Assembly (NCBI GenBank): GCA_016176555.1
Contig: JACOWY010000006.1
Location: 1 to 54,486 of the forward strand
Direction: 5' to 3'
Origin: Candidatus Chisholmbacteria bacterium
GTDB taxonomy: Bacteria; Patescibacteriota; Microgenomatia; UBA1400; JACOWY01
Length of the DNA stretch: 54,486 nt
In this document: piece by piece, positions 21,325-34,028 of the stretch
Layout of the letters: every line of letters begins with the position of its first letter
Position numbering within the stretch: the first letter of the stretch is position 1
The notes under the pieces: model-generated
Database searches by the model: none
The model's input: only the letters and a program-made list of their open reading frames with translations
Told to the model about the DNA's origin: nothing
Translations under genes and position numbers: made by a program

Positions 21325-21807
21325 ATGAATATCGGGGTCATCGTCGCTATCGCTATCGTCATCGTCACTGTGGTAGTCAATCGTAGTCTCCCTCAAGAGC
21401 CAGAAGATTCTCTGTCTCCCGAGCCCATCGTCTCTCCCTCACCTGAACCCTCCCCAGAGCCGTCATTAGAGCCCTCGCCCACCCCGGAGCCTTCATCCAC
21501 GACCACGCCAACCCCAACGCTTACTCCCACGTCCCTCGAAACCTTCCGCTATCCCGAAAGCAGCGTTGAAAGTCAGTCATCCACCTCGCTTGCTTTAAAA
21601 ACTTCTGCGTCCGCCCAGACTGTCACCCAATGGTACCAAGATAAAATTAAAAGTTTAGGTTACTCGACCACCGCTTTTGTCCGTACCTCCACCAATGACA
21701 ATGTGAATAACGAACTTGCCGCCGCGGGTGACGGGCAAAATATTCGCGTCACAATTCGTCAAGAAAACCCTTCGGCCTCAACCTCAATCACTGTCACCAA
21801 AGAGTAA
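21325..21807 (+). CDS. hypothetical TM-anchored protein with Pro/Glu/Ser-rich linker
   Basis: N-terminal TM segment IGVIVAIAIVIVTVVV, followed by (S/E)PEP repeats. Confidence 0.6.
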   Translation: MNIGVIVAIAIVIVTVVVNRSLPQEPEDSLSPEPIVSPSPEPSPEPSLEPSPTPEPSSTTTPTPTLTPTSLETFRYPESSVESQSSTSLALKTSASAQTVTQWYQDKIKSLGYSTTAFVRTSTNDNVNNELAAAGDGQNIRVTIRQENPSASTSITVTKE

Positions 21808-21919: not shown

Positions 21920-22184
21920 GAAATGTGATTTATTCGAGCCTAGCTGAATACCATGGGCTTTAGCCCATGGATGAATGCCAGGCAGAACGAACTCCGAAAG
22001 CCCTGAGCTCGTCGAAGGGCTGAGGATACCACGGGCGTTAGCCCGTGGTTGTTCATTGTTTACACCCGAAGTATTGACAAAGAAACCAGGCAACAGTATA
22101 GTAAGCGCCAGCGAACTACGTCGGGTCCGATTCATCGGACCGTAGACATATTACCGTCACTTGCCCCAGAGATGGGGTTTTTGT

Positions 22185-22934
22185 ATGCACAGAAGAAATA
22201 AAGTCGCCATCGCCGCTCTCCAATTCCGCCTCGAAAATCTGAGTCCTACACTTAGCTCCCTATTTAATAATTCGATAGAATTTCATCGAAGATATAATTT
22301 CTTAAATTCTCTTAAGCCTCTTATCGCCCAAGTCAAAGCCCGCATCGCCGGCTTCCAAAATGGCAACTATCACTACCGTCGCAGCCAATCACTTCCCTGG
22401 ACGAAAATCATTGTCGGCCTTATTGCTCTCGTCGTCGTGGGTCTAGCTGGCAGAGCCCTGATTCGCACCGTGGCCTCCAAAACGCCCTCGAGCCCAAACA
22501 CCAATATTGCCGCTCCCTACAAAACCCTTGAGCTCAACCGCGAATTTAGTTACACAGTCAAAAATAGCGCCGGTGAAGATACGGATATGAAGATTCATTT
22601 TAAACTCGAAAAACTAGAGCTGGCCAAAGAAATTGTTGCCAAGGGTCAACGGGCTACCGCTATTTCCGGTAGATCATTTTTACTCCTCACCATCAAGCTC
22701 ACCAACAACGAGGAGGTCGGCATTGAAATCGACACTCGTGATTACGTCCGCCTCAGCGTCGATGGCAGTGAAGAAAAGTTGGCCGCCGATATTCATAACG
22801 ACCCAGTGGAAGTCCAACCCCTCTCCACCAAAACCACCCGCATTGGTTTCCCCGTCAACGACACCATCAAAAAAGTCACCCTCTACATCGGCGAGATAAA
22901 AGGCGAAAAAGAGGCAATAGCAATCGACCTGTAG
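22185..22934 (+). CDS. hypothetical single-TM protein with DUF4352-like C-terminal beta domain
   Basis: ATG at 22185. TM segment IIVGLIALVVVGLAG. The C-terminal pattern ..GRSFLLLTIKLTNNEEVGIEIDTRDYVRL.. resembles DUF4352. Confidence 0.5.
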   Translation: MHRRNKVAIAALQFRLENLSPTLSSLFNNSIEFHRRYNFLNSLKPLIAQVKARIAGFQNGNYHYRRSQSLPWTKIIVGLIALVVVGLAGRALIRTVASKTPSSPNTNIAAPYKTLELNREFSYTVKNSAGEDTDMKIHFKLEKLELAKEIVAKGQRATAISGRSFLLLTIKLTNNEEVGIEIDTRDYVRLSVDGSEEKLAADIHNDPVEVQPLSTKTTRIGFPVNDTIKKVTLYIGEIKGEKEAIAIDL

Positions 22935-23123: not shown

Positions 23124-23153
23124 TTGACAACAAGATAAACTACTCTGTATAGT
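23124..23153 (+). promoter_or_regulatory. putative sigma70-type promoter upstream of the yezD-like gene
   Basis: TTGACA (23124-23129), 18-nt spacer, TATAGT (23148-23153). Confidence 0.45.
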
Positions 23154-23210
23154 GCTTATCGAATCCGGAAGTGCAGAGAGAAATAAGAACTTGAGTCAAG
23201 CCTATGAGCC

Positions 23211-23399
23211 ATGATGCCATCAACCATCGTTACCAACAAACTTATCAAGGAAATTGAACAAGCCTTTCAAAGTGTTGGCGACTATGGTAGTGTCGAGATC
23301 TACATCCAAGCCAGCCGCGTGACCCAGATCACCAGCCGCAAGATTCGCAAAACCATGCATCCCGTCTACGGAAAAAACCGCTACTTAGCCAATAAGTGA
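23211..23399 (+). CDS. YezD-like small protein (DUF2292)
   Basis: 62 aa. IEQAFQSVGDYGSVEIYIQASRVTQITSRKIRK matches the DUF2292 pattern (..YGSvti.iqdGkvvqie..ekir). Confidence 0.6.
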   Translation: MMPSTIVTNKLIKEIEQAFQSVGDYGSVEIYIQASRVTQITSRKIRKTMHPVYGKNRYLANK

Positions 23400-23607
23400 A
23401 TATAAGAAAATATTAAAATCAGAAACTCGAGCACGCTGTGCCTGCCTCGCCGGCGGGCGGGCGCGCAGAGTTTCTCCATAATCGAGTAAGCACTGCGAAC
23501 TAGATTATCGGAAGTTTCGCCATAGGCGAAACGACGCACATTTCTTTTTGCCGTAACTTTTTCTTTCCCAAAGAAAAAGTACGAGCACTATTAACCGACC
23601 GCAACCG

Positions 23608-23653
23608 GAGGTTCTTAGAAAAAGATACGTCTTTTTCAAGGAACCTCTTTTTT
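23608..23653 (+). terminator. rho-independent terminator-like hairpin
   Basis: gaggttc..aaaaaga-tacg-tcttttt..gaacctc followed by tttttt. Confidence 0.55.
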
Positions 23654-23754
23654 GTTGCCAAAACCAGTTTGCTTGCAACGTGTTTGCTTGCAAACTATAC
23701 GTTGCCCGCGAATTTTATTTGCGAGGTCCTAAGAAAGGGGGTGAAAACAAATTC

Positions 23755-25062
23755 ATGACTAAATTTCAAAAGAAAATCGTAGGTGCTCTTGCTGGTGCTT
23801 CCATTTTGGTAAGCACCCTAACTCCGGCAGTTTTGGCTGCATCTTACGAAATCTCCGGCAACGGCCGCGATTCGACGAGTTTAATCGAGACTGATCTCGA
23901 AAGAAAAGTCGACGTCCAGCAAGACAACGACGCCGACGTTAAAAACGACGTCACCGTCTACACCAATACCGGCAACAACAAAGCCAACGATAATATTGGT
24001 GGTAACGTCTCGATAGACACCGGCAACACCGACGTTGGAGTGCAAATCTCCAACAACCTCAACACCAACTTTGCCGAAGTCGATAACTGTGGCGGTTGTG
24101 CCTTTGACGGCGAATTCAAAATTGCCAACAATGGCCGAGATTCGGACAACACCATCGAATTCGATGCCGAATCCAAAGTCGAAGTTGACCAAGACAACGA
24201 CGCCAAGGTTAAAAACTACGTTGACGTCACCGCTAAGACTGGCGATAACGACGCCAACGATAACAACGGTGGCTCTGTCGAAATCGACACCGGCAATGTC
24301 AAAGTCAATCCAGTTGCCATCTGGAACACCCTCAACGCTAACTTTGCTAGGGTTTCAAATGGCGGCGGAGATGGTGAACTTTCCGCCCGAATTGTCGGTA
24401 ACCTGAGAAAAAGCGCCAACTTGATTGATCTCGATTTCGAATCTAAAGTCGACGTCCAGCAAGACAACGACGCCGACGTCGCCAACGACGTAGACGTCTA
24501 TGGCAACTCCGGTAACAACGACGCCAACGACAACCACGGCTCTGTTGAAATCGACACTGGCAACGTTGAAATCGGCGTGCTGGTCGATACCGCCGCTAAT
24601 TTCAACTTAGCTGACGTCGAAGACTGCTGTCTTTTAGACCTTGACGCCAAAATCGGCGAAAACGGTCGCGATTCTGACAACACCATCGAACTCGACCTCG
24701 AGGACAAACTCGAAGTTGACCAAGACAACGACCTCGACTGTGACGGTGGTCACAAGAAAAGAGGCGGTTGGGGAGAGTGGGGTGAGTGGTGGAAGAAAGA
24801 TAAAGGCGGCAAATGTGCTGACGTTGATCTCACCGCTAAAACCGGTGACAACGACGCCAACGACAACGGCGCTGGTGGTGGCGATCCCTCGATCGACACT
24901 GGTGACGCCGACGTGGCCGTAGAAGTCTCAAACTCTGGTAACGTCAATGAGTTTGGTGACGGAGATTTTGACCTCCCTGGTGGAGGTACCTCAGTAGATA
25001 TCGATCTTGACTTCGGCGGACTCATGGAGCTCCTCGAAGAGCTGCTCGATCTATTGAGCTAG
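23755..25062 (+). CDS. secreted protein of four Asn/Asp-rich ~88-aa modules (module protein 1); no anchor, acidic C-terminal helix
   Basis: RBS aaggggg 12 nt upstream. Signal peptide MTKFQKKIVGALAGASILVSTLTPAVLA. Four repeats of the pattern ..NGRDS.N.I....K(V/L)(D/E)V.QDNDA.V.N.V.V....TG(N/D)NDANDN.GG.V.IDTGN..V......N.NfA.V... Ends in GGLMELLEELLDLLS. Confidence 0.82.
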   Translation: MTKFQKKIVGALAGASILVSTLTPAVLAASYEISGNGRDSTSLIETDLERKVDVQQDNDADVKNDVTVYTNTGNNKANDNIGGNVSIDTGNTDVGVQISNNLNTNFAEVDNCGGCAFDGEFKIANNGRDSDNTIEFDAESKVEVDQDNDAKVKNYVDVTAKTGDNDANDNNGGSVEIDTGNVKVNPVAIWNTLNANFARVSNGGGDGELSARIVGNLRKSANLIDLDFESKVDVQQDNDADVANDVDVYGNSGNNDANDNHGSVEIDTGNVEIGVLVDTAANFNLADVEDCCLLDLDAKIGENGRDSDNTIELDLEDKLEVDQDNDLDCDGGHKKRGGWGEWGEWWKKDKGGKCADVDLTAKTGDNDANDNGAGGGDPSIDTGDADVAVEVSNSGNVNEFGDGDFDLPGGGTSVDIDLDFGGLMELLEELLDLLS

Positions 25063-25224
25063 AAGCTTATATGGTGCGGTGGGAGGCACGGACTTGTCTC
25101 AAGTACCGAGCCCCCACCCGCCATGAAGCCATAACACATTTCGCAAGAAACAGCGGCCGAGCTAAAGCGAGGCGTAGCTATAGACTTGTAATTAAAAGCT
25201 AGCGAGTCACTGCCCACCAAGCTA

Positions 25225-27256
25225 TTGATGAAAAATTTAACTAAAAAATTAGTCAGCCTAATTACTAGTTTCATGCTGGTGATGACCTCAGTGGGCCCAG
25301 TGATTAATCCTGGGCTGGTATACGCCGTGCCCGCTCGACCGGATACGCCGGAAGAGCCAGATCAACCCGATCTCCCCGACGAGCCCGAGCTTCCCAGTCA
25401 GCCCCGACAGCCGGGCGATCCTACCCCCACCCCCCAGCCAAACGCAACCTCCCAAACTACTTCCACCGATACCACTAATTCTTCTTCCCCACCCCCTGTC
25501 ACCACTACCAGCACCGGCGGCACGACTGAAGGCGATGGCCAAGGCGATACCGCCATCACCACCGGCACTGCCACCGCCACCGGCACTATTGACACCACTG
25601 CCAACACCAACCTCGGCACCACCGGAGGTTCTGGCACCGGCTCAGGCCTTTCCGCCTCCAACATCAACAATGGCCAAAACTCCACCAACACCAATACTAT
25701 CGATAACACCAGCACCTCCTCGCTCGATCAAGATAATTCTGCCAAGGTCACCAACACCGCCGGCTTAAGCGCCGTCTCCGGTCGTCGAATTCAACGTTGT
25801 CGATGATCACGTCGGTGATATCATCCTTGACTTTGCCAATCCTTGCGCCACCGGCGGCTGCATCGCCGGCACTCCCTTAAACCTCTCCAACACCGGCAAC
25901 GGTCAAAACTCCACTAACACCAACGACGTCACTACCGACTTGACCTCCGCTACCTTCCAAAACAACGACGCCACTATTGAAAACAACCTCATCTTAGATT
26001 CTAACTCCGGTTACAACGTGGCCAAAGACAACCTTGGGGGCGACGTGGCCATTGTGAGTGGCGACGCCAATACTTCTGCCAACGTCGTCAACATGGCCAA
26101 CAACAACTTTGCCGGCAATGTCTTAGTCGGCGTGGTCAACATTTTTGGCGACCTCATTGGCGACATCATCCTTCCCGAGCAAGAAGGCAGCGGTGGAGGC
26201 TCCGGCACCTACGCTGCCAATGTGGCTAATGGGGCTGATTCACAAAACTTCAATAACATCGATCAGTCCACGCTGGATGCCATCACTCAGAACAATACTG
26301 CTACCATAGATAACAACCTGAATTTAGCCGCTACCACGGGCGGCAACTCTGCCAAAGACAACATTGGCGGCGGCGGCAACTCGATCATTACCGGTGATGC
26401 CAACGTCGTCGCTCAAGTCTTAAACATCGCCAACACCAACATCGTCGGCGGCTCCTGGTGGGTAGTTTTGGTCAACGAAGCCGGCAACTGGATCGGCCAC
26501 ATCGTGGGCGGGGGAGAAGGCGCCAACTACGCCGGCTCCGCGGGCACAGAGTTTCTGGTCAACCCCGATGGCTCCATTACCGCCTCAAATGGTGAAAACC
26601 TCGCTGGTTCGACCAATACCAATAACCTCACCACTAACACGACCAATACCACCACTCAAACCAACACCGCCACCATTGTCAACAATCTCGATCTTTCTGC
26701 CAACACTGGTGGTAACAAAGCCAAAGACAACGGCGGCGGCAATACCTCCATTGTCACCGGCGACGCCAACATCGTGGCCAACGTCGTCAACTTCCTCAAC
26801 AACAACTTTGTGGGGGGCCGTGTCTACCTCACCGTCATCAACGTCTTTGGATCTTGGCTAGGCGACTTCGTCGGCCCAGGCCAAACACAGGATACAGCTT
26901 CAAATAATTCCCAGACTCTCGCTCTCGGTGGCACAGAAAACAGCGGCAGCTCAAGTGGCAGCCACAACTCTGGAACTTCAAGCCAAAGCAACTCAGCTAA
27001 CACCCAAGTCCAAGCTGCGCTCGCCTCCCAACCTGTCACCTCACCGGCTCAAGTGCTCGGCAATAAAGTCGGCCAATTCCTTTCCTTCCAAGAGGAAAAC
27101 CCTGAAGACCCGGCGCCCACCGTCCAAGCTGCCAGCTCTGCGGCCAAAAAAGTCATCAAAGTCAACTTAGCCATCGTCATTCCCTTACTGCTCGCCTATT
27201 TCGCTATTCGCTATCACAAACAACTTGCTGCCCTTCTGCCCGAGAAGAGGAAGTAA
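25225..27256 (+). pseudogene. module protein 2: signal peptide, Pro-rich and Thr/Gly-rich spacers, four variant Asn-rich modules, Ser/Thr stalk, C-terminal TM. Reading frame broken at ~25769-25806.
   Basis: ORF 25225-25806 stops inside a module. The +1 frame is open from 25769 and continues the module consensus into ORF 25940-27256. About 35-40 aa of the module are missing at the junction. C-terminal LAIVIPLLLAYFAIRY followed by a basic tail. Confidence 0.7.
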
Positions 27257-27260
27257 GTTA

Positions 27261-28379
27261 GTGTTCAAAAAAATTGTTTCCTTTGTCACTGTCCTCACCC
27301 TGGCGCTTGATCTCGCCGCCCTCCCCGTACTGGCCACGACCGTTGAGATCAGTGGCAATGGGGCCGAATCACAGAGTGTAGCCACCGTTACCCAATCTCA
27401 GCAAAGTTCCATCTCTCAATCAAACGAGGGAGATGTCAATAACAACGTCAATATTGACGCCAACACCGGCAATAACACCGCCTCGGACAACACTGGCGAT
27501 ACGAGTATCACCACTGGCGACATCCACACCAATACTGCCATCACCAATGATCTCAACCAATCCCAGGCTTCAGCCGAGTGTTGCCCTCAAGGAGCCACGA
27601 CACTCATCATCAAAGACAACGGTGCTAACTCCCAAAACACCATTACCGCCACTACCCATACCTCAGCCGAGGGCATTATCAATCAAACCGCTACGATCAA
27701 TAACACCGTCCAAGGTAATGCCAACACCGGCTACAACACCGCCAACGATAATCATGGCACTGTGAGTATCACCACCGGCAACATCTTTATCCACGAAAAA
27801 ATCGCCAATAAACACGTCAATCAAGCCATCATGACCCTGCCTCAGGATGCAGGCCCCAATGTTTCCGCCCGCATCTCAGACAACGGCCAGAACACCACCA
27901 ATACCATCACCCATAACTATGTCTCCCTCGTCAACGCCGTGGTCAACAACGTGGCAGAGATTACCAACAAAAGCCATTGGTCAGCCAACACTGGCGGCAA
28001 CGACGCTAATGACAACTTTGGTCATGTCTCCATCGACACCGGCGATATCTTAGTCTGGATCGACATTCAAAACGACGTCAACTATTCCCAAGTCGAAGTC
28101 GGCTGCTGTGAGGCCAAACCTTCACCCACCCCCACTCCTCCTCCTGGCCCCGTGCCTTCACCTCCCCCCGGTCGTGGAGGCAACGGCGGCGGCGGCGATG
28201 GAGATGGTGGCAATGGCGCAGCTGCAGCCGGTGGCAACGGCGGCGGCCAGATTTTGCCCGTCACCGGTAACAACCTGTTGCTGACCTTAACCTTTATCAA
28301 CCTCTTGCTGCTTACCTTCGGCCTCTACCTCAAGACGCCCCCTAACCGAGAGCTCAAACTCACCTTCTCCTTCGCCTAG
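27261..28379 (+). CDS. module protein 3: three Asn-rich modules, Pro-rich and Gly-rich stalk, LPXTG cell-wall sorting signal
   Basis: GTG at 27261 with RBS gaggaag. Signal peptide ..LDLAALPVLA. LPVTG at 28254-28268, followed by a hydrophobic stretch and KTPPNRELK. Confidence 0.85.
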   Translation: MFKKIVSFVTVLTLALDLAALPVLATTVEISGNGAESQSVATVTQSQQSSISQSNEGDVNNNVNIDANTGNNTASDNTGDTSITTGDIHTNTAITNDLNQSQASAECCPQGATTLIIKDNGANSQNTITATTHTSAEGIINQTATINNTVQGNANTGYNTANDNHGTVSITTGNIFIHEKIANKHVNQAIMTLPQDAGPNVSARISDNGQNTTNTITHNYVSLVNAVVNNVAEITNKSHWSANTGGNDANDNFGHVSIDTGDILVWIDIQNDVNYSQVEVGCCEAKPSPTPTPPPGPVPSPPPGRGGNGGGGDGDGGNGAAAAGGNGGGQILPVTGNNLLLTLTFINLLLLTFGLYLKTPPNRELKLTFSFA

Positions 28380-28399
28380 CGAAAATCTTTAAAGTTATA

Positions 28400-28430
28400 A
28401 AGACCGGGTCTTCGTACAAGACCCGGTCTT
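28400..28430. repeat. perfect 13-bp-stem hairpin of the RGMCCGGKYCTT..AAGRMCCGGKCTTGAAG family
   Basis: aagaccgggtctt-cgtac-aagacccggtctt followed by gaag. Related copies at 28474-28502, 29170-29200 and inside rarA at 43223-43262. Confidence 0.85.
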
Positions 28431-28473
28431 GAAGACAAACAGTTGGAGGAAAAACCACTTTAATCAAAGTAAG

Positions 28474-28502
28474 AGGCCGGGTCTTTTCACTGACCCAGCC
28501 TT
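28474..28502. repeat. hairpin of the same family (imperfect)
   Basis: aggccgggtct-tttcact-gacccagcctt followed by gaag. Confidence 0.7.
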
Positions 28503-28562
28503 GAAGCCAACCGGTTGAAGTTCCAACAAGTTCAATTTCAGTTTTGCTACAATCCCTAAACC

Positions 28563-29129
28563 ATGACCAAATCCACCCCAACTCTCGCCAGCCGCCTTGG
28601 CACCGTCCTCATCGCCGCTTCCTTGCTCTTTTTCCTCATTCTCTATGGTCCTTTCCTTCTCTTATTCCTCCCCGGTAAAACAGTCGCCGTCCCCCAAAAT
28701 CAACCTGGCCTGACTATCACCATCCCCAAAATCAATGCCCAAGCCCCGATCATTAAAGATGTTGATCCTTGGAACGAAGCAGAATATCGCACCAGACTTA
28801 AAGAAGGCGTAGCCCACGCTAAAGGCTCGAGCCTTCCGGGCGAGGGGAGTACCACCTATCTCTTCGCCCACTCCTCCGATCTGCCTTGGAATCTCACCCG
28901 CTACAACACAGCCTTTTTTCGCTTAGGCGAACTCCAACCCGGCGACGCCATCATGGTCACCGATGATGTTCAAACCTTCACCTACCAAGTTACCGCCATC
29001 AAAGTCGTCCGCCCCGACGAAGTCAAATACCTCACCCAATTTCAGGATAAAGATCAGCTCATTCTCCAAACCTGCACCCCCATCGGCACCGCCCTCAAGC
29101 GCCTCCTCGTCTTCGCCGCACCTGCCTAA
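28563..29129 (+). CDS. sortase-family transpeptidase
   Basis: N-terminal TM. Catalytic His in TYLFAHS, Cys in LILQTCTP and a downstream Arg in LKRLLVF. Confidence 0.88.
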   Translation: MTKSTPTLASRLGTVLIAASLLFFLILYGPFLLLFLPGKTVAVPQNQPGLTITIPKINAQAPIIKDVDPWNEAEYRTRLKEGVAHAKGSSLPGEGSTTYLFAHSSDLPWNLTRYNTAFFRLGELQPGDAIMVTDDVQTFTYQVTAIKVVRPDEVKYLTQFQDKDQLILQTCTPIGTALKRLLVFAAPA

Positions 29130-29169
29130 CTTAAACCTACAACTTTCGCGTTGACATATCTTGCGGTAA

Positions 29170-29200
29170 AAGGCCGGGTCTTTTGGCCAGACCCGGCCTT
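29170..29200. repeat. perfect 12-bp-stem hairpin of the same family, in the convergent intergenic gap
   Basis: aaggccgggtct-tttggcc-agacccggcctt followed by gaag. Confidence 0.85.
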
Positions 29201-29271
29201 GAAGCTCATCGGAAATACCTCATCGACACACATAAACGCTTCAAACCGATGTTGAAATTAGAAACAGCAAC

Positions 29272-30261
29272 CTAAAGCTCACAACCACCCACATCTTCGC
29301 CATCCACGCATTTGTCGACGCCAGAATTGCCTCTCAGCCGATCAGTATCGTCACCTCCATCCAAGAGGTCATTACCGCTGTCCCCACCCAGTCCGTCATT
29401 ACCACCCTCTCCGAAAATTTTGTCATTACCTGAATTACCATTCATTCGGTCGTTGCCCCCGCCGCCGTGCATCACGTCGTTCCCATTACCGCCACTCAGT
29501 CTATCCTCGCCGGGGCCACCAATACCGACGTCATTCCCCGAATCCAACTCAATCCGATCGTCACCCTCACCCCCCACTACACAATCATGCCCCGAAGCGG
29601 CAATAATCCGGTCGTTGCCGCCTTTGCCCAAAATGAATTCATGTGCCGACGTCCCCCGGAGAATATCATCGCCCTCAGTGCCCTCGATTACTTCGGTGAT
29701 AAACCCAGCGATCGGAAAGCACTCGTCGGGCAAATCAAGTTCACCCTCTTCACTGCCAAATACAAGATCAAAAATCGTCTCCGCTCCCTGCCACTGATTA
29801 TCATCTTCTCCGGGCACAAAACAGACCACAAAATCGTAGTTTACCGTTTCGGTACTGCCCACAGTCGACAAAAACACCCCATCAGGCGCGTCGCTGGCCG
29901 TAAAAAAACTGGCCAAAGTGCCATTAAATAACTCCGTGGCATCCTGCGAAATAGTCAGGTTTAGCCTCTCGGCAAAGCCCAAGGGATTTTCCGTTTCGTT
30001 ATCACTTTTTACCGCCACAGCCACACTATTTGGCCCAGTGTTTTCCGCTACCACCGTGTGCACGTCGGTGCAATCGCCCGGCAGCATCCCCGTCACTTCA
30101 AAAATCGGATCTCCGAGCGGTACGCCCAAATAGGTAATAATCAAATCTCCCACCGCCTGTACATTCGCCCCCAAAACGTTTTTCCCTTGCCACCACTCCC
30201 AGCCAAAAAAGCTCACCACAATGATCGAAGGGATAATGAGTTTGAGCAGACGTTTCTTCAT
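29272..30261 (-). CDS. TasA/camelysin-like domain fused to RTX-type calcium-binding repeats
   Basis: Start at MKKRLLKLIIPSIIVVSFF; the 18 upstream codons in the track lie in a repeat element. TasA-like MLPGDCTDVHTVVAENTG and NQWQGAETIFDLVFG. C-terminal GGxGxD nonapeptides (GGNGNDVMHGGGGNDRMNGNSGNDKIFGEGGNDGLGGDSGNDLL). Confidence 0.78.
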   Translation of the reverse strand: MKKRLLKLIIPSIIVVSFFGWEWWQGKNVLGANVQAVGDLIITYLGVPLGDPIFEVTGMLPGDCTDVHTVVAENTGPNSVAVAVKSDNETENPLGFAERLNLTISQDATELFNGTLASFFTASDAPDGVFLSTVGSTETVNYDFVVCFVPGEDDNQWQGAETIFDLVFGSEEGELDLPDECFPIAGFITEVIEGTEGDDILRGTSAHEFILGKGGNDRIIAASGHDCVVGGEGDDRIELDSGNDVGIGGPGEDRLSGGNGNDVMHGGGGNDRMNGNSGNDKIFGEGGNDGLGGDSGNDLLDGGDDTDRLRGNSGVDKCVDGEDVGGCEL

Positions 30262-30273
30262 AATCTCAAGATT

Positions 30274-30344
30274 TGTCATTCTGAAGCTGAGCTTGTCGAA
30301 GCTGAAGAATCTCATTAGATCCTTCGCGTACGCTCAGGATGACA
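30274..30344. repeat. full-length GTCATTCTGA..TCAGGATGACA element
   Basis: tgtcattctgaagctgagcttgtcgaagctgaagaatctcattagatccttcgcgtacgctcaggatgaca. Confidence 0.85.
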
Positions 30345-30372
30345 AAGTGATTATTGAAATAATTCATAATTT

Positions 30373-30780
30373 TCACAATCCTGGCGTTGGTGTTGTTCGC
30401 ACTACAAAATCACTAGGTGCAAAATTAGTTCCCGTCGCCGAATCAAGGCCGGTGGGATCCCGCTCAATCGATTCATCTGTACTTGGCTCCAAGCCAGTCA
30501 CCCCATTCCACTCAATCGTGTCTATAACCACATCGTTAGCATCCAAAAGCCTCAATAAATTGGTATTCAAATTAACTTGAGCCCCAAGATTCACTGTCAC
30601 CGCACCATTCACGTTGCCGTTTAAGCACTGCTGAATCACTCCATTACTCTTCACCAAGATGGCAAACGCCCCAGTATTGAGCGAGGTATTTGAGTTTGCT
30701 ATCGCCAACGTGTTAGTCCCGTCGCTGAGTTTAAAGTTTTGCAAGTCCACTGGTGCCCCGCTGCCATTACACAATTCCAA
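30373..30780 (-). CDS. lamin-tail-domain protein fragment; its expected signal peptide lies upstream in another frame
   Basis: QFLELCNGSGAPVDLQNFKLSDG.. and IEWNG..SIERDP..TPG are LTD signatures. The ORF opens only at a TTG just after stop codons. Confidence 0.65.
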   Translation of the reverse strand: MELCNGSGAPVDLQNFKLSDGTNTLAIANSNTSLNTGAFAILVKSNGVIQQCLNGNVNGAVTVNLGAQVNLNTNLLRLLDANDVVIDTIEWNGVTGLEPSTDESIERDPTGLDSATGTNFAPSDFVVRTTPTPGL

Positions 30781-31543
30781 AAATTGACCACATCACTAAA
30801 GTCTGCGCTATGTCATCGAAAGAAGAAGCCGCCCCAAACACATTGGCCAGGCTCGTTTCCGAGTCAAGAAAAAATGACCCGCTCACCGCCATGGTCACAA
30901 ACAACGCCCCCAAAAACGGCACGACTGTAGTGGCCAACGGTAAACCCCTTGGCTCTTTCTTAGGCAGAAGATTAATTTTGAAAGCCACGCTAACGTCTCG
31001 CCTGCGCCTCAGCCACAGCCTTAGTCGCCCCAATCCACGCTTAATTTCTCTGCCTAAATTCTTCAGTTCCTCATAAATAATAATCGTCGCCGGCACTATC
31101 ACCAGAAAAATAAACCCTTGTGGTTTCTTAGCAAAATCCACCGCATAACCCACATAGGGGACGCTCAACGTCACCGCGCCGATAATGTCATCCTTGTGCA
31201 CCAAGCCTTGATCCACCGACTTGTTGGCATCACCTTTGGTTTGGTAGAGAATCTCCTGGTCCTCGCCATCTTGCGCCAAATCATTCACTCGGTGCGTCAC
31301 CGGCAAATCTTTACCAGTGATAAAAGTAATAATGTCGCCCTGAGCATAGCCAAAGGGTTTAGGCTTCACAAACACCACGCTACCCAAAGGGATCGCCGGC
31401 TCCATGGAGCCCGACATGACCACATAGGGTTTAATCGGCACTGAGTAGCCCAAATGCCCGGCCACAAACAGTGCTCCTCCCGCCGCCATCACGGCAAAAA
31501 GGACTACCTGAAAACTAATTGAGAGAATCTTTCGCATCTTCAT
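30767..31543 (-). CDS. sipW: SipW/archaeal-type signal peptidase I (S26). The ORF continues without a stop into a second, SipW-class signal-peptide-like segment.
   Basis: MKMRKILSISFQVVLFAV.., catalytic-Ser box MSGSMEPAIPLGSVVFV, VTHRV, C-terminal TM FIFLVIVPATIIIY. Then RRRRD..LATTVVPFLGALFVTMAVSGSFFLDSETSLANVFGAASS. Confidence 0.85.
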   Translation of the reverse strand: MKMRKILSISFQVVLFAVMAAGGALFVAGHLGYSVPIKPYVVMSGSMEPAIPLGSVVFVKPKPFGYAQGDIITFITGKDLPVTHRVNDLAQDGEDQEILYQTKGDANKSVDQGLVHKDDIIGAVTLSVPYVGYAVDFAKKPQGFIFLVIVPATIIIYEELKNLGREIKRGLGRLRLWLRRRRDVSVAFKINLLPKKEPRGLPLATTVVPFLGALFVTMAVSGSFFLDSETSLANVFGAASSFDDIAQTLVMWSIFGIV

Positions 31544-31577
31544 TATCGCATTGACAGGGTTCAACCCTATCAACCTT

Positions 31578-31695
31578 TGTCATCCTGAATTTGTCCCCGT
31601 CATCCTGATCCTGAGCTTGCCGAAGGAGAAGGATCTCATGAGAGAACACGTAACCGGGGTGAGATCCTTCGGTCGCCAGCTCTCTCAGGATGACA
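31578..31695. repeat. GTCATCCTGA..TCAGGATGACA element (two left ends)
   Basis: tgtcatcctgaatttgtccccgtcatcctgatcctgagcttgccgaaggagaaggatctcat..gagatccttcggtcgccagctctctcaggatgaca. Confidence 0.85.
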
Positions 31696-31817
31696 AGTAA
31701 CCTGTTTAGCTAGTACGTAGAATTTCGTAGACCAGAACCAACAGTATTTTCTTGTCTAGTCACTAGTGCCTAGTGCCTAGTCACTATTTCTATTAGCTCT
31801 GGCCTACCCTCTTAAGG

Positions 31818-31865
31818 CTCTACGGCCAAAAGAGAGTAGTTCTCTACGGCCAAAAGAGAGTAGTT
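31818..31865. repeat. perfect 24-bp tandem duplication
   Basis: ctctacggccaaaagagagtagtt occurs twice, directly downstream of the TasA-like gene stop. Confidence 0.9.
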
Positions 31866-31878
31866 AAATTCTCGTTTA

Positions 31879-32766
31879 TTAGTCAAGTGGTTCGCAAACG
31901 AAATCAGGGTTATTTCTCGATTGCTCAACTCTAAACGAGAGATCAGCTGTTAAAGAATCAGACTGGGTGTCATTACCCATGACGTCACCGTCACAAGAAA
32001 TATCACCACCGGAAATTCCAATTCCTCCGGCACACCATGCTAGACCGATGAAGTAGTCGTTGCTACCGATAAGTGGGCCACCGCCTAATGGATCAAACAC
32101 GTTACCATTACTATCAGCTAATGGGTAAGTAACACCATTTAAGACATCGCTAGCTGGACCGCTTACGTTACTGAAAAGGGGAAACTCGTCATCGGCTGTG
32201 TTGGGCGTTTGATCATTTCCATCCGGCTCAAAGACATTATCACCGTCGTCTTTCCAGGAAAAAAATTCAAGATTTTGAGCCAGTTCACCCTCATCGTCAC
32301 CTCCCGTTGTATCACCAGCTTCCTCTTCAGGTTCTGTAAGTCCGTTGTCATCATTTTCGAGAGGACTGATATCCATACAAGCCCATGCATCGTTGTCAAA
32401 TACATGCAAGCTAATGGTATTCTCCCCAGCATCTCCCGGTTTAACATCAGAGAATGAGAAGAACTTTTCCTCAAAAAGATCTGTGAGATCCCAACTACCA
32501 TCACAAGGTTCACCAATTAAATCCGGTCTAGTTGATGTATTAGGTACATCCTCCACCCATTCGAAAACGCCAGGATCAACTTCAGTACAGGTTAGACCCG
32601 CGTAGTGAGCGGTACTATCAATTTGAAGATCCAATTCTCCAGCTTGAAAAGTATTATCAAAAGACGTCTCAGTGTCGCTAAAGAAGGCTCCGCTGGCGGC
32701 AAAAGCCGCACCAGCCACCAAAGCCACAGTCATCACACTCAAAAGAATTCGTTTCATTTTTCTCAC
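31879..32766 (-). CDS. TasA/camelysin (M73)-family secreted protein with SipW-cognate signal peptide
   Basis: RBS aaggggggtga. MRKMKRILLSVMTVALVAGAAFAASGAFFSDTETSFDNTFQAGELDL matches the SipW-class signal (FSDTETS..NTF.AG.LDL). Also FSDVKPGDAGENTISL and a late ..DLSFRVEQSRNN. Confidence 0.85.
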   Translation of the reverse strand: MRKMKRILLSVMTVALVAGAAFAASGAFFSDTETSFDNTFQAGELDLQIDSTAHYAGLTCTEVDPGVFEWVEDVPNTSTRPDLIGEPCDGSWDLTDLFEEKFFSFSDVKPGDAGENTISLHVFDNDAWACMDISPLENDDNGLTEPEEEAGDTTGGDDEGELAQNLEFFSWKDDGDNVFEPDGNDQTPNTADDEFPLFSNVSGPASDVLNGVTYPLADSNGNVFDPLGGGPLIGSNDYFIGLAWCAGGIGISGGDISCDGDVMGNDTQSDSLTADLSFRVEQSRNNPDFVCEPLD

Positions 32767-32933
32767 CCCCCTTCAGACATTCAAATATTTCTATGTATAC
32801 TTTTTCCTCTGGTTAACTCCAACACTGTCGTGCCAGACTTTCCCACCCTGAGCGAGGTTGAAGGGTTTCGGAATCGGATTGATCCCGAACTAAATTCAGG
32901 GTGCCTGAGAAAAAGTTTTCGAAACAGTTCAGA

Positions 32934-32957
32934 CAAAAAAGCTCCCAGCTTGGGAGC
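32934..32957 (-). terminator. rho-independent terminator inside the leader of the TasA-like gene
   Basis: Minus strand: gctcccaagctgggagc followed by tttttt. About 135 nt downstream of the predicted TSS and about 170 nt upstream of the ATG at 32766. Confidence 0.65.
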
Positions 32958-32974
32958 ATTCATATCATTCCAAT

Positions 32975-33120
32975 GAAGGCGGAGAAAAACGGGCAGGCTT
33001 TTCATCTTCGTAAATAAGACTTGTAGCAATCTTTTCCCCGTCTCCGTGAGCGGCCGACTTTAAAAGATTGGCCCCACTATACCAATGCCTCAATCAGCTC
33101 TGTCAACTGGATCTTTGTGT
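32975..33120 (-). promoter_or_regulatory. promoter plus leader module, copy 1 (homologous to 34029-34168)
   Basis: Minus strand: TTGACA (33106-33101), 19-nt spacer, TGgTATAGT (-10 at 33081-33076). The downstream leader contains the 9-bp stem caatctttt/aaaagattg. Confidence 0.6.
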
Positions 33121-33236
33121 GATGATGTGGGCGAAATCATGACTCAATCGATCACAGTAGTGCAACGAGTTTTTAAGCACTTCAATCAATTAAAGTGAAG
33201 TCTCCATCGTAGCCAAAGCCCTGGTCTTGACCATTC

Positions 33237-33321
33237 TGTCATCCTGAGGATCCGGCTCAGCCGGAGACGAAGGATCTCCGCTCAATGAATTGAGAGATTC
33301 TTCGTTACACTCAGAATGACA
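33237..33321. repeat. GTCATCCTGAG..TCAGAATGACA element
   Basis: tgtcatcctgaggatccggctcagccggagacgaaggatctccgctcaatgaattgagagattcttcgttacactcagaatgaca. Confidence 0.85.
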
Positions 33322-33381
33322 AATCCAGCACCTAAAACCCGCCGTTAGAGGCGGGTTGTAGGCTGTCAAAGTCAATCCAGA

Positions 33382-33717
33382 TTAAATCGCCGGCGGTGTT
33401 TGGTTCACCCGATTGGTGATGGTAATGGTGACGTCAATTTTACCTGTCTTGATTTTCACTTTGCCATCATTGTCGTCGGCACTATTGCCGCCAGTATAGA
33501 GAGTGAGCCTCAGGTCGTTATCGATGTCGGCATCGTTGTCCACATCCACTTTTACTTTCTTTTCCACTTTAAGTTCACACTTATTGTGAGAGCTGCGGCC
33601 ATTATCTTTGATCACACAGCGCAGTCGGGGTGCGGCCAAAGCTGGTCCGACGGCAAGTAAAGTTGCCATCGCCCCACCGATGATACCCACGCCAATTTTG
33701 GTTGCGAGTTTTTGCAT
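33382..33717 (-). CDS. single-module paralogue (111 aa) of the Asn/Asp-rich repeat family
   Basis: Strong RBS aggaggtga. Signal peptide MQKLATKIGVGIIGGAMATLLAVGPALA. One module: IKDNGRSSHNKCELKVEKKVKVDVDNDADIDNDLRLTLYTGGNSADDNDGKVKIKTGKIDVTITITNRVNQ. Confidence 0.78.
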   Translation of the reverse strand: MQKLATKIGVGIIGGAMATLLAVGPALAAPRLRCVIKDNGRSSHNKCELKVEKKVKVDVDNDADIDNDLRLTLYTGGNSADDNDGKVKIKTGKIDVTITITNRVNQTPPAI

Positions 33718-33965
33718 TTTTATTTCACCTCCTTTCAGCCAAGTCCGATCTATCGGACCTGGCAGACCCCGCACTGGAACCCGAATGCGAAGCCCGACTA
33801 GATGATCGAGCGAGCAAGTCGAGCCTGCCACGTACCGACTGGTACTGTGGCGACTAGTGCTGGGGCAACTACTTTGTTAATGATTAAGTAAGTCATTTTT
33901 AACACCAGAGATTAAAAGTATTTTCATAAAAACTTAAGAGTTTAGTAACAGCGGTTCTCCCACAC

Positions 33966-34001: not shown

Positions 34002-34028
34002 TATCAATATAAAAAACACTGAGACGAA

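What the first reader, a model, noticed from the sequence alone, without database searches (positions are those of the whole stretch)
23124..33831. Convergent dual-pathway surface-fibre locus: a sortase/LPXTG block facing a SipW/TasA-like block
Gene content:
- Plus-strand block: a YezD-like small protein; three large secreted proteins built from one Asn/Asp-rich module (23755-25062, 25225-27256, 27261-28379, the last ending in LPVTG-TM-basic tail); and a sortase (28563-29129).
- Minus-strand block, converging on the first: a one-module paralogue (33382-33717); a TasA/camelysin-like protein with a textbook SipW-class signal peptide (AFFSDTETSFDNTFQAGELDL); a SipW-type signal peptidase; an LTD protein preceded by a second SipW-class signal; and a TasA-like/RTX calcium-repeat fusion.

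Interpretation:
- Two dedicated protein-sorting enzymes therefore sit next to their apparent substrates within 10.7 kb.
- The new module occurs in both blocks.
- Established knowledge: tapA-sipW-tasA builds biofilm fibres in Bacillus, and sortases attach LPXTG proteins to peptidoglycan.
- Inference: this is one system in which a wall-anchored module protein nucleates or tethers polymers of unanchored module and/or TasA-like subunits. I know of no described system with this combination.
Basis: partly seen in the sequence, partly recalled or inferred. Interest (0 to 1): 0.82.

Follow-up and report, generated by a model that had tools for sequence, protein, structure and literature searches.

The report
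Two neighbouring bacterial surface-fibre gene cassettes
An uncultured ultra-small bacterium (Candidatus Chisholmbacteria) carries an unannotated family of repeat proteins with its own wall-anchoring enzyme, next to a TasA-type biofilm-fibre gene set; the two sets are neighbours in only about a quarter of related species, so they are more likely two surface systems sharing a gene island than one new machine.

Summary
Protein B (25225-27256) is broken by a ~110-nt deletion and frameshift. The "second SipW signal" is in frame with sipW, a SipW-signal-LTD fusion split here by a T5 frameshift.

The window is a Candidatus Chisholmbacteria (Microgenomates, CPR) contig. In 80 related species the plus-strand block is a conserved cassette: up257, DUF2292, A (4 modules), B (about 5 modules, INLAW-TM anchor), C (3 modules, LPXTG), sortase, and a convergent basic D. 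The ~88-aa module has no Pfam, NCBIfam or PDB match. AlphaFold gives a confident all-beta model with no Foldseek neighbour.

The minus-strand block is a separate cassette widespread in Patescibacteria: TasA-like, SipW(-LTD), RTX/TasA-like. The TasA-like model's best structural match is the TasA fibre.

The cassettes adjoin in 18 of 80 species (17 of 57 with enough flank). Two of six closest TasA-like loci showed the same link. Linked species are scattered over the protein-A tree. In nine species, RTX sits 12-94 bp upstream of D.

Sorting signals are not cross-wired. SipW/TasA operons beside sortases and LPXTG proteins are already described in Clostridia.

Verdict: two autonomous cassettes in a surface-gene island, possibly cooperating. 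New variant of known kinds; the module family is the new part.

The parts
21325..21807 (+). up160: small membrane protein with a Pro-rich linker. It is a frequent upstream neighbour of the module cassette.
   Evidence: jackhmmer finds it in 49 of 82 loci, usually just upstream of up257. No Pfam family.
22161..22934 (+). up257: single-pass membrane protein with a beta-rich ectodomain. It is the most conserved neighbour of the cassette.
   Evidence: Present immediately upstream of DUF2292/A in 80 of 82 loci. No Pfam or NCBIfam hit even at E<=10.
23124..23153 (+). Promoter-like site TTGACA-18-TATAGT (11 of 12 matches) upstream of the DUF2292-A-B-C-sortase genes.
   Evidence: This is a consensus match only.
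23211..23399 (+). DUF2292 (YezD-like) small basic protein, the first gene of the plus-strand cassette.
   Evidence: PF10055 E 6.9e-6, 26 bits against a cutoff of 22. Found in 73 of 82 loci directly upstream of A.
23755..25062 (+). Protein A: signal peptide, four ~88-aa Asn/Asp-rich all-beta modules with Cys pairs at module junctions, and a short C-terminal amphipathic helix. It has no anchor. pI is 4.05.
   Evidence: More than 350 full-length homologues of about 400-440 aa, none with a Pfam domain. AF2 pLDDT 81.2, pTM 0.76.
25225..27256 (+). Protein B, interrupted. The N-terminal fragment is 25225-25806 (signal peptide, Pro-rich linker, start of first module). The C-terminal fragment is about 25781-27256 in the +1 frame (modules with an extra NxFGxWxGD extension, linker, 'KVIKVNLAI' + TM + basic tail). 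About 37 aa are missing at about 25775-25785.
   Evidence: Intact orthologues are 700-800 aa and end in (K/R)x(V/I)xINLAW-TM-basic.
27261..28379 (+). Protein C: signal peptide, three modules, Pro/Gly-rich stalk, then LPVTG + hydrophobic segment + basic tail (a sortase sorting signal).
   Evidence: Orthologues carry LP[AVI]TG in 24 of 37 C-like ORFs, followed by a conserved YLRLRSGRSP tail.
28563..29129 (+). Sortase with an N-terminal membrane anchor, a His in 'LFAHSS', the catalytic Cys in 'LILQTCTP', and an Arg in 'KRLLV'.
   Evidence: PF04203 E 1.5e-27. TIGR01076 77 bits against a cutoff of 39. No class model reaches its cutoff; the best is class C at 81.6 against 160. A sortase lies downstream of A in 45 of 57 loci with enough flank.
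29272..30315 (-). N-terminal hydrophobic segment, then a ~175-aa short TasA/camelysin-type domain, then a C-terminal RTX Ca2+-binding beta-roll. The likely start is the internal Met at about 30261.
   Evidence: PF00353 E 5e-27. By iterative HMM the N-domain matches ~190-aa proteins, one of which (L002 16520-17101) is annotated PF12389. Direct hhalign to the long TasA-like family was negative.
30373..30780 (-). Lamin-tail-domain (LTD) reading frame. It is the cargo part of a SipW-signal-LTD fusion, out of frame here because of a T5 run at 30779-30783.
   Evidence: PF00932 E 1.2e-7, 32.5 bits against 34.3..
30767..31573 (-). SipW/ER-type signal peptidase I (SGSMEP serine box, THRV, GDAN). It continues in frame through a basic linker into a third TM and a SipW-class cleavage and donor-strand-like motif, SGSFFLDSETSLANVFGAASSF.
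   Evidence: NF046067 E 3e-32 and TIGR02228 97 bits against 51.85. In-frame fusions occur in L083 (383 aa), L012, L042, L078, L013, L087 and L088.
31879..32766 (-). Long TasA/CalY-like subunit with the signal-peptide junction ...ASGA|FFSDTETSFDNTFQAGELDL.
   Evidence: PF12389 E 8.8e-5. TIGR04088 is sub-threshold at 14.2 against 19. More than 1,800 homologues, several named TasA or CalY family or SipW-dependent signal peptide protein. AF2 pLDDT 86.6. The top Foldseek hit is the TasA fibre 8AUR, E 1.1e-3, prob 0.99.
32941..32957 (-). Terminator-like hairpin (7-bp stem followed by T6) between gene D and the TasA-like gene.
   Evidence: It suggests that D is transcribed separately from the TasA block in this genome. 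This is a consensus match only.
33382..33717 (-). Protein D: signal peptide plus one module, basic (pI 9.2). Orthologues are ~200-aa two-module basic proteins convergent to the sortase.

Best explanation
The region holds two self-sufficient cell-surface assembly cassettes of a Microgenomates (CPR) bacterium. They lie tail to tail in a variable surface-protein gene island.

Cassette 1 (plus strand, with D on the minus strand) is lineage-wide.
- Acidic proteins A, B and C are built from one ~88-aa all-beta Asn/Asp-rich module. They are exported with ordinary signal peptides (shown from sequence).
- The adjacent sortase cuts C at LPVTG and links it to the wall. This is inferred from the canonical sorting signal and the conserved C-sortase pairing.
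- B stays in the membrane through a conserved INLAW-TM-basic C-terminus (inferred).
- A is free and D is free and basic.
- Because all four share the same module, free A and D are proposed to co-assemble, sheet to sheet, onto anchored B and C. This would give a tethered beta-rich surface polymer or layer. The logic is that of the Streptomyces long and short chaplins, or of curli CsgB and CsgA (inferred; no assembly was shown).

Cassette 2 (minus strand) is a TasA-type donor-strand fibre set found widely in Patescibacteria.
- SipW removes the special signal peptide of the TasA-like subunit and exposes the N-terminal FFSDTETS strand. That strand inserts into the next subunit, by analogy with B. 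subtilis TasA.
- The LTD domain is made as a fusion to SipW and carries the same N-terminal motif after its own cleavage site. It would act as a TapA-like first donor or tip.
- The RTX protein has a short TasA-type domain but no donor motif. It would be a Ca2+-binding terminal or minor subunit.

The two cassettes use separate signals and enzymes. Their frequent adjacency reflects a shared island, and perhaps co-regulation or cooperation at the surface, not an obligatory single machine.
For: Cassette 1 is a conserved unit.
- up257, DUF2292, A, B, C(LPXTG), sortase and convergent D recur in the same order in 80 species-representative loci.
- The module profile finds only 3,066 clusters in 1.84 billion representatives. 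The best 150 hits are mostly of A, B or C size, with 3-5 matched modules.
- A's AF2 model is confident and all-beta, with long strands.

Signals are not cross-wired.
- Only C carries LPXTG.
- Only the TasA-like protein and the SipW extension carry the FF-D-ETS motif.

Cassette 2 is autonomous.
- The order tasA(-tasA)-sipW(+LTD)-RTX recurs in L083, L085, L086 and L088 with no module genes within 10 kb.
- The long TasA-like family has more than 1,800 homologues. Source names include Paceibacterota, Giovannonibacteria and Yonathbacteria.
- The TasA-like model's top structural hit is the TasA fibre. Its residues 29-40 are disordered in the monomer model, as expected of a donor strand (PMC9674648).

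Linkage is in the minority: 18 of 80 loci, or 17 of 57 with enough flank.

The island is variable.
- Extra sortases, a SpaA-like 1,840-aa protein and LTD proteins occur around the cassette in different species.
- A and B can be followed directly by the TasA block without C and the sortase (L012, L042, L023).

Precedent: srtB next to sipW-bsa in C. perfringens is dispensable for BsaA polymers (PMC7395162).
Against: - Adjacency (22-30%) is well above the roughly 2-4% expected for a random position in a genome of about 1 Mb. Genome size is my assumption for CPR.
- Linked species are spread over 12 of 34 protein-A clusters.
- Adjacency is seen from both directions: 2 of 6 TasA-first look-ups, L084 and L087.
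- In nine species, plus L087, the RTX gene is 12-94 bp upstream of D on the same strand. That spacing looks operonic and ties a module protein to the TasA cassette.
- No assembly, anchoring or expression data exist for any of these proteins.
- The coordinates of the module model could not be inspected, so sheet-to-sheet co-assembly is conjecture.
- In this genome B and SipW-LTD are frameshifted, so the system may not be intact here.
Confidence: 0.5

Rival explanations
1. One integrated system. Wall-anchored C and membrane-anchored B form a module platform. The basic module protein D, often co-transcribed with the TasA cassette, bridges that platform to acidic TasA-like fibres. The sortase pathway would then supply the anchor that B. 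subtilis obtains from TapA.
For: - The two cassettes are repeatedly adjacent in dispersed lineages.
- RTX and D are 12-94 bp apart on the same strand in nine species and in L087.
- The convergent layout of the window is reproduced in L011, L043, L059, L066 and L087.
- D is basic (pI 9.2), whereas A, B, C, the TasA-like protein and the RTX protein are all at pI about 4.
- The literature proposes LPXTG proteins as anchors in BsaA/AbpX loci.
Against: - About 70-78% of species keep the full module/sortase/D cassette with no TasA gene within about 10 kb.
- D is present and convergent to the sortase without any TasA block in most species. Of the 30 loci that have a D gene, 21 lack an adjacent TasA block.
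- The TasA cassette occurs alone in 4 of 6 look-ups.
- In the window itself a terminator-like hairpin separates D from the TasA-like gene.
- No TasA-block protein has a sortase signal.
- The C. perfringens precedent showed no dependence on the neighbouring sortase.
Confidence: 0.27
2. The module cassette does not make fibres at all. It builds a two-dimensional envelope layer (S-layer-like or wall-associated lattice) of the CPR cell. A is the abundant lattice protein. B and C are its membrane and wall attachment points. The TasA block next door is unrelated.
For: - There is a single conserved copy per locus across Microgenomates classes, next to housekeeping genes such as TsaE and a TsaD-family fragment.
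- A is highly acidic.
- A's four modules are predicted as one rigid body (pTM 0.76), not as beads on a string.
- Three anchoring modes would suit a layer that spans membrane to wall.
- From my own knowledge, not tested here: cryo-EM of groundwater CPR cells showed a distinct surface layer.
Against: - No SLH or other known S-layer anchoring domain was found.
- Nothing in the data distinguishes a lattice from a fibre.
- The non-significant Foldseek neighbours are beta-solenoid adhesins and functional amyloids such as Ag43, FapC and CsgA.
Confidence: 0.15
3. In this particular genome the locus is decaying. B (deletion plus frameshift) and SipW-LTD (frameshift) are pseudogenes and D is truncated to one module, so the window shows a relic rather than a working system.
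For: - B lacks about 37 aa and changes frame.
- The LTD domain is out of frame.
- D has one module where orthologues have two.
- The TasA block has one TasA-like gene where relatives have two, and it sits in a rearranged position relative to D.
- An MFS transporter 2 kb away is also split.
Against: - The LTD frameshift lies in a T5 homopolymer.
- Three split genes in 54 kb of a MAG are equally typical of assembly or consensus errors.
- All other genes of both cassettes are intact with conserved motifs.
- This reading is not exclusive of the others.
Confidence: 0.3

Closest known systems
Streptomyces chaplins (long ChpA-C with a sortase signal, short secreted ChpD-H)
   Same: A paralogous set shares one domain. 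Multi-domain members carry a C-terminal sortase signal and are wall-linked. Free members co-assemble on them to tether a surface polymer (PMC5618241). This is the logic proposed for C (LPVTG) and A/D.
   Different: - There is no sequence relationship: no Pfam hit at all, including the chaplin domain PF03777.
- The module is 88 aa, acidic and Asn/Asp-rich, not a ~55-aa hydrophobic domain.
- There is an extra membrane-anchored member (B).
- A dedicated sortase is encoded in the cassette.
- Amyloid behaviour is untested.
Bacillus subtilis tapA-sipW-tasA
   Same: - A dedicated ER/archaeal-type signal peptidase sits next to a jelly-roll subunit whose post-cleavage N-terminus resembles the TasA donor strand.
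- An accessory protein carries a similar N-terminus, as TapA does (PMC9674648).
- The TasA fibre 8AUR is the top structural match of the window protein.
   Different: - The accessory protein is an LTD domain translationally fused to SipW, not TapA.
- There is an extra RTX-fused short TasA-type protein.
- The SipW equivalog model is not reached (111.6 against 190 bits).
- TM-scores to TasA are low (0.29-0.35).
- The host is a CPR bacterium.
Clostridium perfringens sipW-bsaABC operon with adjacent srtB, and BsaA/TasA-family neighbourhoods in Firmicutes
   Same: - A sortase gene sits next to a SipW/TasA-like operon but in the opposite orientation.
- Most strains have an LPXTG-bearing BsaB-like protein.
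- The family is reported to co-occur often with LPxTG proteins, signal peptidases and sortases (PMC11580942; PMC7395162).
   Different: - There, the LPXTG protein is itself TasA-like. Here the sortase substrate belongs to an unrelated module family with its own four-gene cassette.
- The srtB deletion had no effect on BsaA polymers.
AbpX-type TasA-superfamily loci in bacteria
   Same: The gene clusters combine a TasA-superfamily fibril protein, a dedicated SPase I, calcium dependence, LPXTG or SLH anchors and sortases (bioRxiv 10.64898/2026.01.04.697558).
   Different: - AbpX-associated peptidases have ten TM helices. Here the peptidase has the two helices of SipW plus one from the fused signal.
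- Calcium binding here is supplied by an RTX domain.
- No AbpX match was found in the PDB searches.
Curli (CsgA/CsgB) and other beta-solenoid functional amyloids
   Same: - Repeat modules with conserved Asn/Gln/Ala/Val on one strand face.
- A surface-bound paralogue that could nucleate a secreted one.
- CsgA and FapC are among the nearest Foldseek neighbours, though not significant.
   Different: - Foldseek E-values are 0.1-0.3 and TM-scores below 0.1.
- There is no Curlin_rpt Pfam hit.
- Strands of up to 31 residues are unlike curli rungs.
- There is no CsgG/E/F-type secretion system, and the host is a monoderm with a sortase.
Gram-positive sortase-assembled (SpaA-type) pili
   Same: A sortase is encoded next to LPXTG-bearing secreted repeat proteins. 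The best, sub-threshold, sortase class score is class C.
   Different: - Only one of the four module proteins has LPXTG.
- There are no Cna-B/SpaA domains and no recognisable pilin motif.
- The class C model is far below its cutoff (81.6 against 160).

Membership tests
Sortase (PF04203 / TIGR01076) | Sortase domain scoring above the curated cutoffs | tested here: met
   PF04203 96.3 bits against 26.6. TIGR01076 77 bits against 39.35.
Sortase (PF04203 / TIGR01076) | Catalytic His, the Cys in a TLxTC-type motif, and Arg | tested here: met
   'LFAHSS', 'LILQTCTP' (Cys171) and 'KRLLVF' were read from the sequence. The assignment is by position, not by a structural alignment.
Sortase class A-F | Reaches an NCBIfam class model cutoff | tested here: not met
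   The best scores are class C 81.6 against 160, class D 61.6 against 165 and class E 35.3 against 160. The enzyme remains an unclassified CPR sortase.
LPXTG cell-wall sorting signal (substrate C) | An LPXTG motif, then a hydrophobic segment, then a basic tail at the C-terminus | tested here: met
   The window sequence is ...GQILPVTGNNLLLTLTFINLLLLTFGLYLKTPPNRELK.... LP[AVI]TG is found in 24 of 37 orthologues. Actual cleavage and anchoring cannot be tested here.
SipW / ER-archaeal-type signal peptidase I | Match to TIGR02228 (sigpep_I_arch) above cutoff, with the Ser and His boxes | tested here: met
   97 bits against 51.85. SGSMEP, THRV and GDAN are present.
SipW / ER-archaeal-type signal peptidase I | Match to the Bacillus SipW equivalog NF046067 above cutoff | tested here: not met
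   111.6 bits against 190. It is SipW-like, not a SipW equivalog.
TasA/CalY/camelysin family (PF12389) | Pfam match above the gathering score | tested here: met
   22.9 bits against 22.5, covering only residues 7-53. Many homologues carry PF12389 and are named TasA or CalY family by their sources. The match is marginal for the window protein itself.
TasA/CalY/camelysin family (PF12389) | Jelly-roll fold like TasA | tested here: inconclusive
   AF2 pLDDT is 86.6. The top Foldseek PDB hit is the TasA fibre 8AUR_A, with E 1.1e-3, prob 0.99 and 212 aligned columns, but TM-scores are 0.29/0.35 and rmsd is 8.8 A. No PDB sequence or profile hit was found.
TasA/CalY/camelysin family (PF12389) | SipW-cognate signal peptide (TIGR04088) | tested here: inconclusive
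   14.2 bits against a cutoff of 19, E 0.036. The motif A|FFSDTETS is visible, and JGI labels homologues as having a SipW-cognate signal.
TasA/CalY/camelysin family (PF12389) | Polymerises by N-terminal donor-strand exchange | not testable with these tools
   The only indirect sign is that residues 29-40 have pLDDT below 50 in the monomer model. No multimer prediction was available.
RTX calcium-binding repeat (PF00353) | Nonapeptide GGxGxD repeats above cutoff | tested here: met
   93.9 bits against 23, with 5-6 stretches.
Lamin tail domain (PF00932) | Pfam match above the gathering score | tested here: inconclusive
   32.5 bits against 34.3, covering profile positions 26-108. The N-terminal part lies in the other frame. 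Orthologous fusion proteins carry PF00932.
DUF2292 (YezD-like) | Pfam match above the gathering score | tested here: met
   26 bits against 22.
Any described family for the Asn/Asp-rich module (Pfam-A 2025, NCBIfam 20.0, PDB sequences, PDB and BFVD folds) | A significant sequence or structure match | tested here: not met
   There are no Pfam hits at E<=10 and no NCBIfam hits. The PDB gave no hit by phmmer or by profile. The best Foldseek E-values are 0.11 against the PDB and 2.7e-3 against BFVD, with probability <=0.08 and TM-scores <=0.13.
Chaplin-type tethered amyloid (functional analogy only) | Chaplin domain PF03777; cross-beta fibrils | tested here: not met
   No Pfam hit. Amyloid behaviour cannot be tested here. 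This is a 'works like' comparison, not a membership claim.

The most novel reading that the evidence does not exclude
The A/B/C/D module proteins are a previously undescribed class of self-assembling beta-rich surface polymer specific to Microgenomates. Under this reading:
- It is built from one module deployed in four states: free acidic, free basic, membrane-held through a new INLAW-type C-terminal signal, and wall-linked through LPXTG and a dedicated sortase.
- It is physically coupled, through the basic protein D, to TasA-type donor-strand fibres whose nucleator is made as a fusion to its own signal peptidase.
- The result would be a composite envelope or attachment structure of these ultra-small, probably host-dependent cells.
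Probability: 0.2. Interest if true: 0.8.

Novelty: new variant of a known kind. Interest (0 to 1): 0.5.

Why it matters
Cell-surface structures are the likely interface between CPR/Patescibacteria and their hosts or substrates, yet almost none is characterised outside type IV pili.

- This locus defines a conserved, unannotated surface cassette present in most Microgenomates classes sampled. It has a confident but unmatched all-beta fold and a built-in anchoring enzyme. That makes it a concrete target for cryo-ET, metaproteomics and heterologous assembly.
- It extends the TasA/SipW fibre paradigm into CPR with two unusual features: a signal peptidase fused to its own substrate, and an RTX-fused TasA-type subunit.
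- The dual-pathway combination itself is not new. It is described in Clostridia, and the evidence here does not show that the two halves form one machine.

Tried and rejected
- **Family searches for the module.** Pfam and NCBIfam scans of every locus protein, including at E<=10, gave nothing for the module proteins, up257 or up160.
- **PDB sequence searches.** Searches with C, the TasA-like protein and profiles A2 and A3 gave only low-complexity noise or nothing.
- **Fold searches for A.** Foldseek against the PDB and BFVD gave no significant neighbour. The beta-solenoid and amyloid entries at the top have TM-scores below 0.13 and I do not treat them as homologues. Model coordinates are not exposed, so I could not decide between a solenoid, a ribbon and a sheet.
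- **RTX N-domain.** hhalign of the long TasA-like profile against the RTX protein was negative. Its TasA-type label rests on an iterative HMM link to ~190-aa PF12389 proteins.
- **Class C pilus system.** I rejected this reading. Only C has LPXTG, there are no Cna-B/SpaA domains, and the class model is far below cutoff.
- **Module in both blocks as evidence of integration.** I rejected this. D is convergent to the sortase in species without any TasA block.
- **Mobile element or phage origin.** I saw no support for this. Composition is even across the region, there are no tRNAs, and the flanks are housekeeping genes.
- **Literature.** Searches for a CPR sortase/module system and for LTD-SipW fusions found no description.

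Full report
**Source and gene content.** The best hit of protein A is a 100%-identical NCBI entry, HYS86_00980, from a Candidatus Chisholmbacteria MAG on a 54,486-bp contig. The window is therefore a CPR/Microgenomates contig.
- DUF2292, 23211-23399
- Module proteins A (23755-25062) and C (27261-28379; LPVTG, hydrophobic segment, basic tail)
- Sortase, 28563-29129 (PF04203 E 1.5e-27)
- On the other strand: an RTX protein (29272-30315), an LTD frame (30373-30780), a SipW-type signal peptidase (30767-31573; TIGR02228 97 bits against 51.85), a TasA/camelysin-like protein (31879-32766; PF12389 just above threshold) and the one-module protein D (33382-33717).

**The module is real.** All-against-all BLASTP among A, B, C and D gives E-values down to 1e-45 in repeated register. 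Ten modules from the window align over about 88 residues with invariant G, N, A, D, N, G, I, T, G, N columns. A, B and C are acidic (pI 4.0-4.5) with 18-27% Asn+Asp. D is basic, pI 9.2.

**Corrections to the observation.**
1. Protein B is not one ORF. The 25225 frame stops at 25806 and the rest is read in the +1 frame from about 25781. Compared with intact 732-749-aa orthologues (L055, L003), about 37 residues are missing at the junction.
2. The sipW ORF does not stop after the peptidase. It continues in frame through a basic linker into a third hydrophobic segment and the motif SGSFFLDSETSLANVFGAASSF. The LTD frame follows after a T5 run at 30779-30783, and removing one T joins the frames. 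Intact in-frame SipW-signal-cargo proteins exist in relatives: L083 (383 aa, with a Pfam LTD hit), L012, L042, L078, L013, L087 and L088. Short stubs occur in L085, L023 and L043. Separate sipW and LTD genes occur in L002, L011, L059, L066 and L074.
3. An MFS transporter nearby is also split. These breaks may be MAG consensus errors or real decay; I could not tell which.

**The module family.**
- A has more than 350 full-length homologues of about 400-440 aa, none with a Pfam domain.
- Neither Pfam at E<=10, NCBIfam, nor PDB sequences (single sequence or profile) match A, B, C or D.
- AlphaFold2 on a 114-sequence alignment gives pLDDT 81, pTM 0.76. The modules themselves are mostly above 90.
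- The model is purely beta. Each module has a 7-residue strand, a 31-residue strand, a TGxNxAxDNxGG loop, a 4-residue strand, a TGD turn and a 19-20-residue strand. A short C-terminal helix ends the protein.
- The long strands carry alternating conserved V/Q/N/A residues on one face.
- Foldseek finds nothing significant in the PDB (best E 0.11) or BFVD (best E 2.7e-3, probability 0.08, TM-score about 0.1). The meaningless top ranks are beta-solenoid adhesins and functional amyloids.
- A module profile finds 3,066 clusters at E<=1e-3 among 1.84 billion representatives. The best 150 are mostly of A, B or C size, with 3-5 matched modules.

**Synteny of the plus-strand block.** A degenerate-pattern scan of one genome per GTDB species returned 80 loci. 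All that carry informative titles are Microgenomates: Woese-, Levy-, Davies-, Gottesman-, Ames- and Chisholmbacteria. Iterative HMM annotation of their ORFs shows one conserved order:

(up160) - up257 - DUF2292 - A - B (700-800 aa) - C (about 370-400 aa) - sortase, then a convergent ~200-aa two-module basic D.

- In 82 loci (these 80 plus L001 and L002), up257 was found in 80 and DUF2292 in 73.
- A sortase lies downstream of A in 45 of 57 loci with at least 9 kb of flank.
- B always ends in (K/R)x(V/I)xINLAW, a hydrophobic segment and a basic tail.
- C ends in LP[AVI]TG plus a YLRLRSGRSP-type tail. Some Woesebacteria have 'GLSDTS' instead.
- The module is thus deployed free (A, D), membrane-held (B) and wall-linked (C).
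- A strong promoter-like site (TTGACA-18-TATAGT) sits at 23124-23153, just before DUF2292.

**The minus-strand block.**
- The TasA-like protein has more than 1,800 homologues across Patescibacteria. Many carry PF12389 or are named TasA or CalY family, or SipW-dependent signal peptide protein, by their sources.
- Its AF2 model (pLDDT 86.6) has a disordered segment at residues 29-40, right after the predicted cleavage site. Its top PDB match is the TasA fibre 8AUR (E 1.1e-3, prob 0.99, TM 0.29-0.35).
- In B. subtilis that N-terminal segment is the donor strand. TapA carries a similar N-terminus and is proposed to provide the first donor strand (PMC9674648).
- The window's LTD extension has the same FF-D-ETS-N-F-A motif as the TasA-like protein. 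I therefore infer a TapA-like role for it.
- By iterative HMM, the RTX protein's N-terminal ~175 residues are related to ~190-aa proteins, one of which is annotated PF12389. Direct hhalign to the long family was negative.
- The order tasA(-tasA)-sipW(+LTD)-RTX recurs in all six look-ups of the closest TasA-like homologues.

**Are the two blocks one system?**

Against:
- Only 18 of 80 species have any TasA-block gene in the fetched flanks, or 17 of 57 with enough downstream sequence.
- Four of six TasA-first look-ups have no module gene within 10 kb.
- Arrangements vary: same strand in L002, upstream in L074, directly after B without C and the sortase in L012, L042 and L023.
- Other surface genes (extra sortases, a SpaA-like giant protein, LTD proteins) also populate this neighbourhood.
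- Sorting signals are not cross-wired.
- In the window a terminator-like hairpin separates D from the TasA-like gene.

For:
- A linkage of 22-30% far exceeds the few percent expected by chance in a genome of about 1 Mb.
- Linked species fall in 12 of 34 protein-A clusters, mixed with unlinked ones.
- L084 and L087 show the linkage from the TasA side, and L087 reproduces the full convergent layout.
- In nine species, plus L087, the RTX gene lies 12-94 bp upstream of D on the same strand.

I conclude that the cassettes are autonomous but have an affinity: a shared island, and possibly co-regulation or cooperation through D. I give the fully integrated reading about one chance in four.

**What is known.**
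- TasA homologues in Patescibacteria were noted in PMC9245690.
- BsaA/TasA-family genes are reported to be 'often in putative operons' with LPxTG proteins, SpaA domains, signal peptidases and sortases. C. perfringens has srtB beside sipW-bsa, with an LPXTG BsaB-like protein in most strains (PMC11580942).
- Deleting srtB did not change BsaA polymers (PMC7395162).
- Bacterial abpX loci are linked to LPXTG anchors and sortases (bioRxiv 10.64898/2026.01.04.697558).
- The dual-enzyme combination is therefore described.
- The anchored-plus-free paralogue logic matches the Streptomyces chaplins (PMC5618241).
- I found no description of the module family, of the INLAW-type terminus, or of SipW-substrate fusions.

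**Verdict.** The locus is a new variant of known kinds of system, and its interesting content is the Microgenomates-wide module/sortase cassette and the SipW-LTD fusion. Interest 0.5.

Noticed in passing
window 30767-31573 (-) with 30373-30780 (-); L083 10922-12073; L087 10890-11969; L088 11274-13034; L012 15821-16930: SipW is translationally fused to a substrate. The order is peptidase, basic linker, extra TM, SipW-class cleavage and donor-strand motif, then a cargo domain (an LTD in L083 and L088; not identified in the others). The enzyme would have to cut off its own C-terminal passenger. The fusion is seen in at least 8 relatives, and the genes are separate in 5 others. I found no description in the searchable literature.
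   Followed up: partly
window 27130-27256 (C-terminus of B); about 70 orthologues in L001-L082: Protein B ends in a strongly conserved (K/R)x(V/I)xINLAW motif followed by a hydrophobic segment and a basic tail. This is the tripartite shape of a C-terminal sorting signal, but it matches no motif known to me. The window variant is KVIKVNLAI.
   Followed up: partly
L003, L008, L019, L021, L036, L039 (C-like ORFs, about 13.5-14.9 kb): In some Woesebacteria, protein C has 'I(I/L)GLSDTS' + TM instead of LPXTG. Five of these six loci (not L036) still show a sortase hit downstream. This may be a variant sortase recognition motif.
   Followed up: no
window 25775-25785: Protein B lacks about 37 aa (110 or 112 nt) relative to orthologues and changes frame. 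This is either a real deletion or a repeat-collapse assembly error.
   Followed up: partly
window 35223-35888 and 35879-36304 (+): The two ORFs look like one MFS transporter gene split in two; only the first half was scanned, and it matches MFS_1. This would be a third apparent frameshift in the contig, which suggests consensus errors in the MAG or general gene decay.
   Followed up: no
window 33382-33717 (-) compared with L011 16094-16711, L043 14432-15049, L087 12988-13578: In relatives, D is a two-module basic protein placed right after the RTX gene, or alone convergent to the sortase. The window's D has one module and lies on the far side of the TasA block, between two terminator-like hairpins (33971-34002 and 32941-32957). 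This implies a local rearrangement.
   Followed up: partly
window 19133-20005 (+): A second LTD protein (PF00932 E 1.2e-19) has an ordinary signal peptide, a Pro/Thr-rich stalk and a C-terminal TM. LTD genes also lie upstream of the cassette in L004, L021 and L055.
   Followed up: no
window 39795-39938 (+): A SAM-I riboswitch (RF00162, 55 bits) lies upstream of the 40107-41219 ORF.
   Followed up: no
L001/L009 1266-8296: In a Gottesmanbacteria genome the same neighbourhood also holds a 1,840-aa SpaA-domain protein and a second sortase just upstream of up160/up257. This supports the idea of a variable surface-protein island.
   Followed up: no
window 23755-25062; alignment A1/A2: Protein A has nearly invariant Cys pairs at module junctions (CGGC after module 1, DCC..L after module 3). 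Its short C-terminal motif, DLxxLLxxL, is conserved and predicted helical. The function of both is unknown; disulfide staples and a docking helix are possibilities.
   Followed up: no
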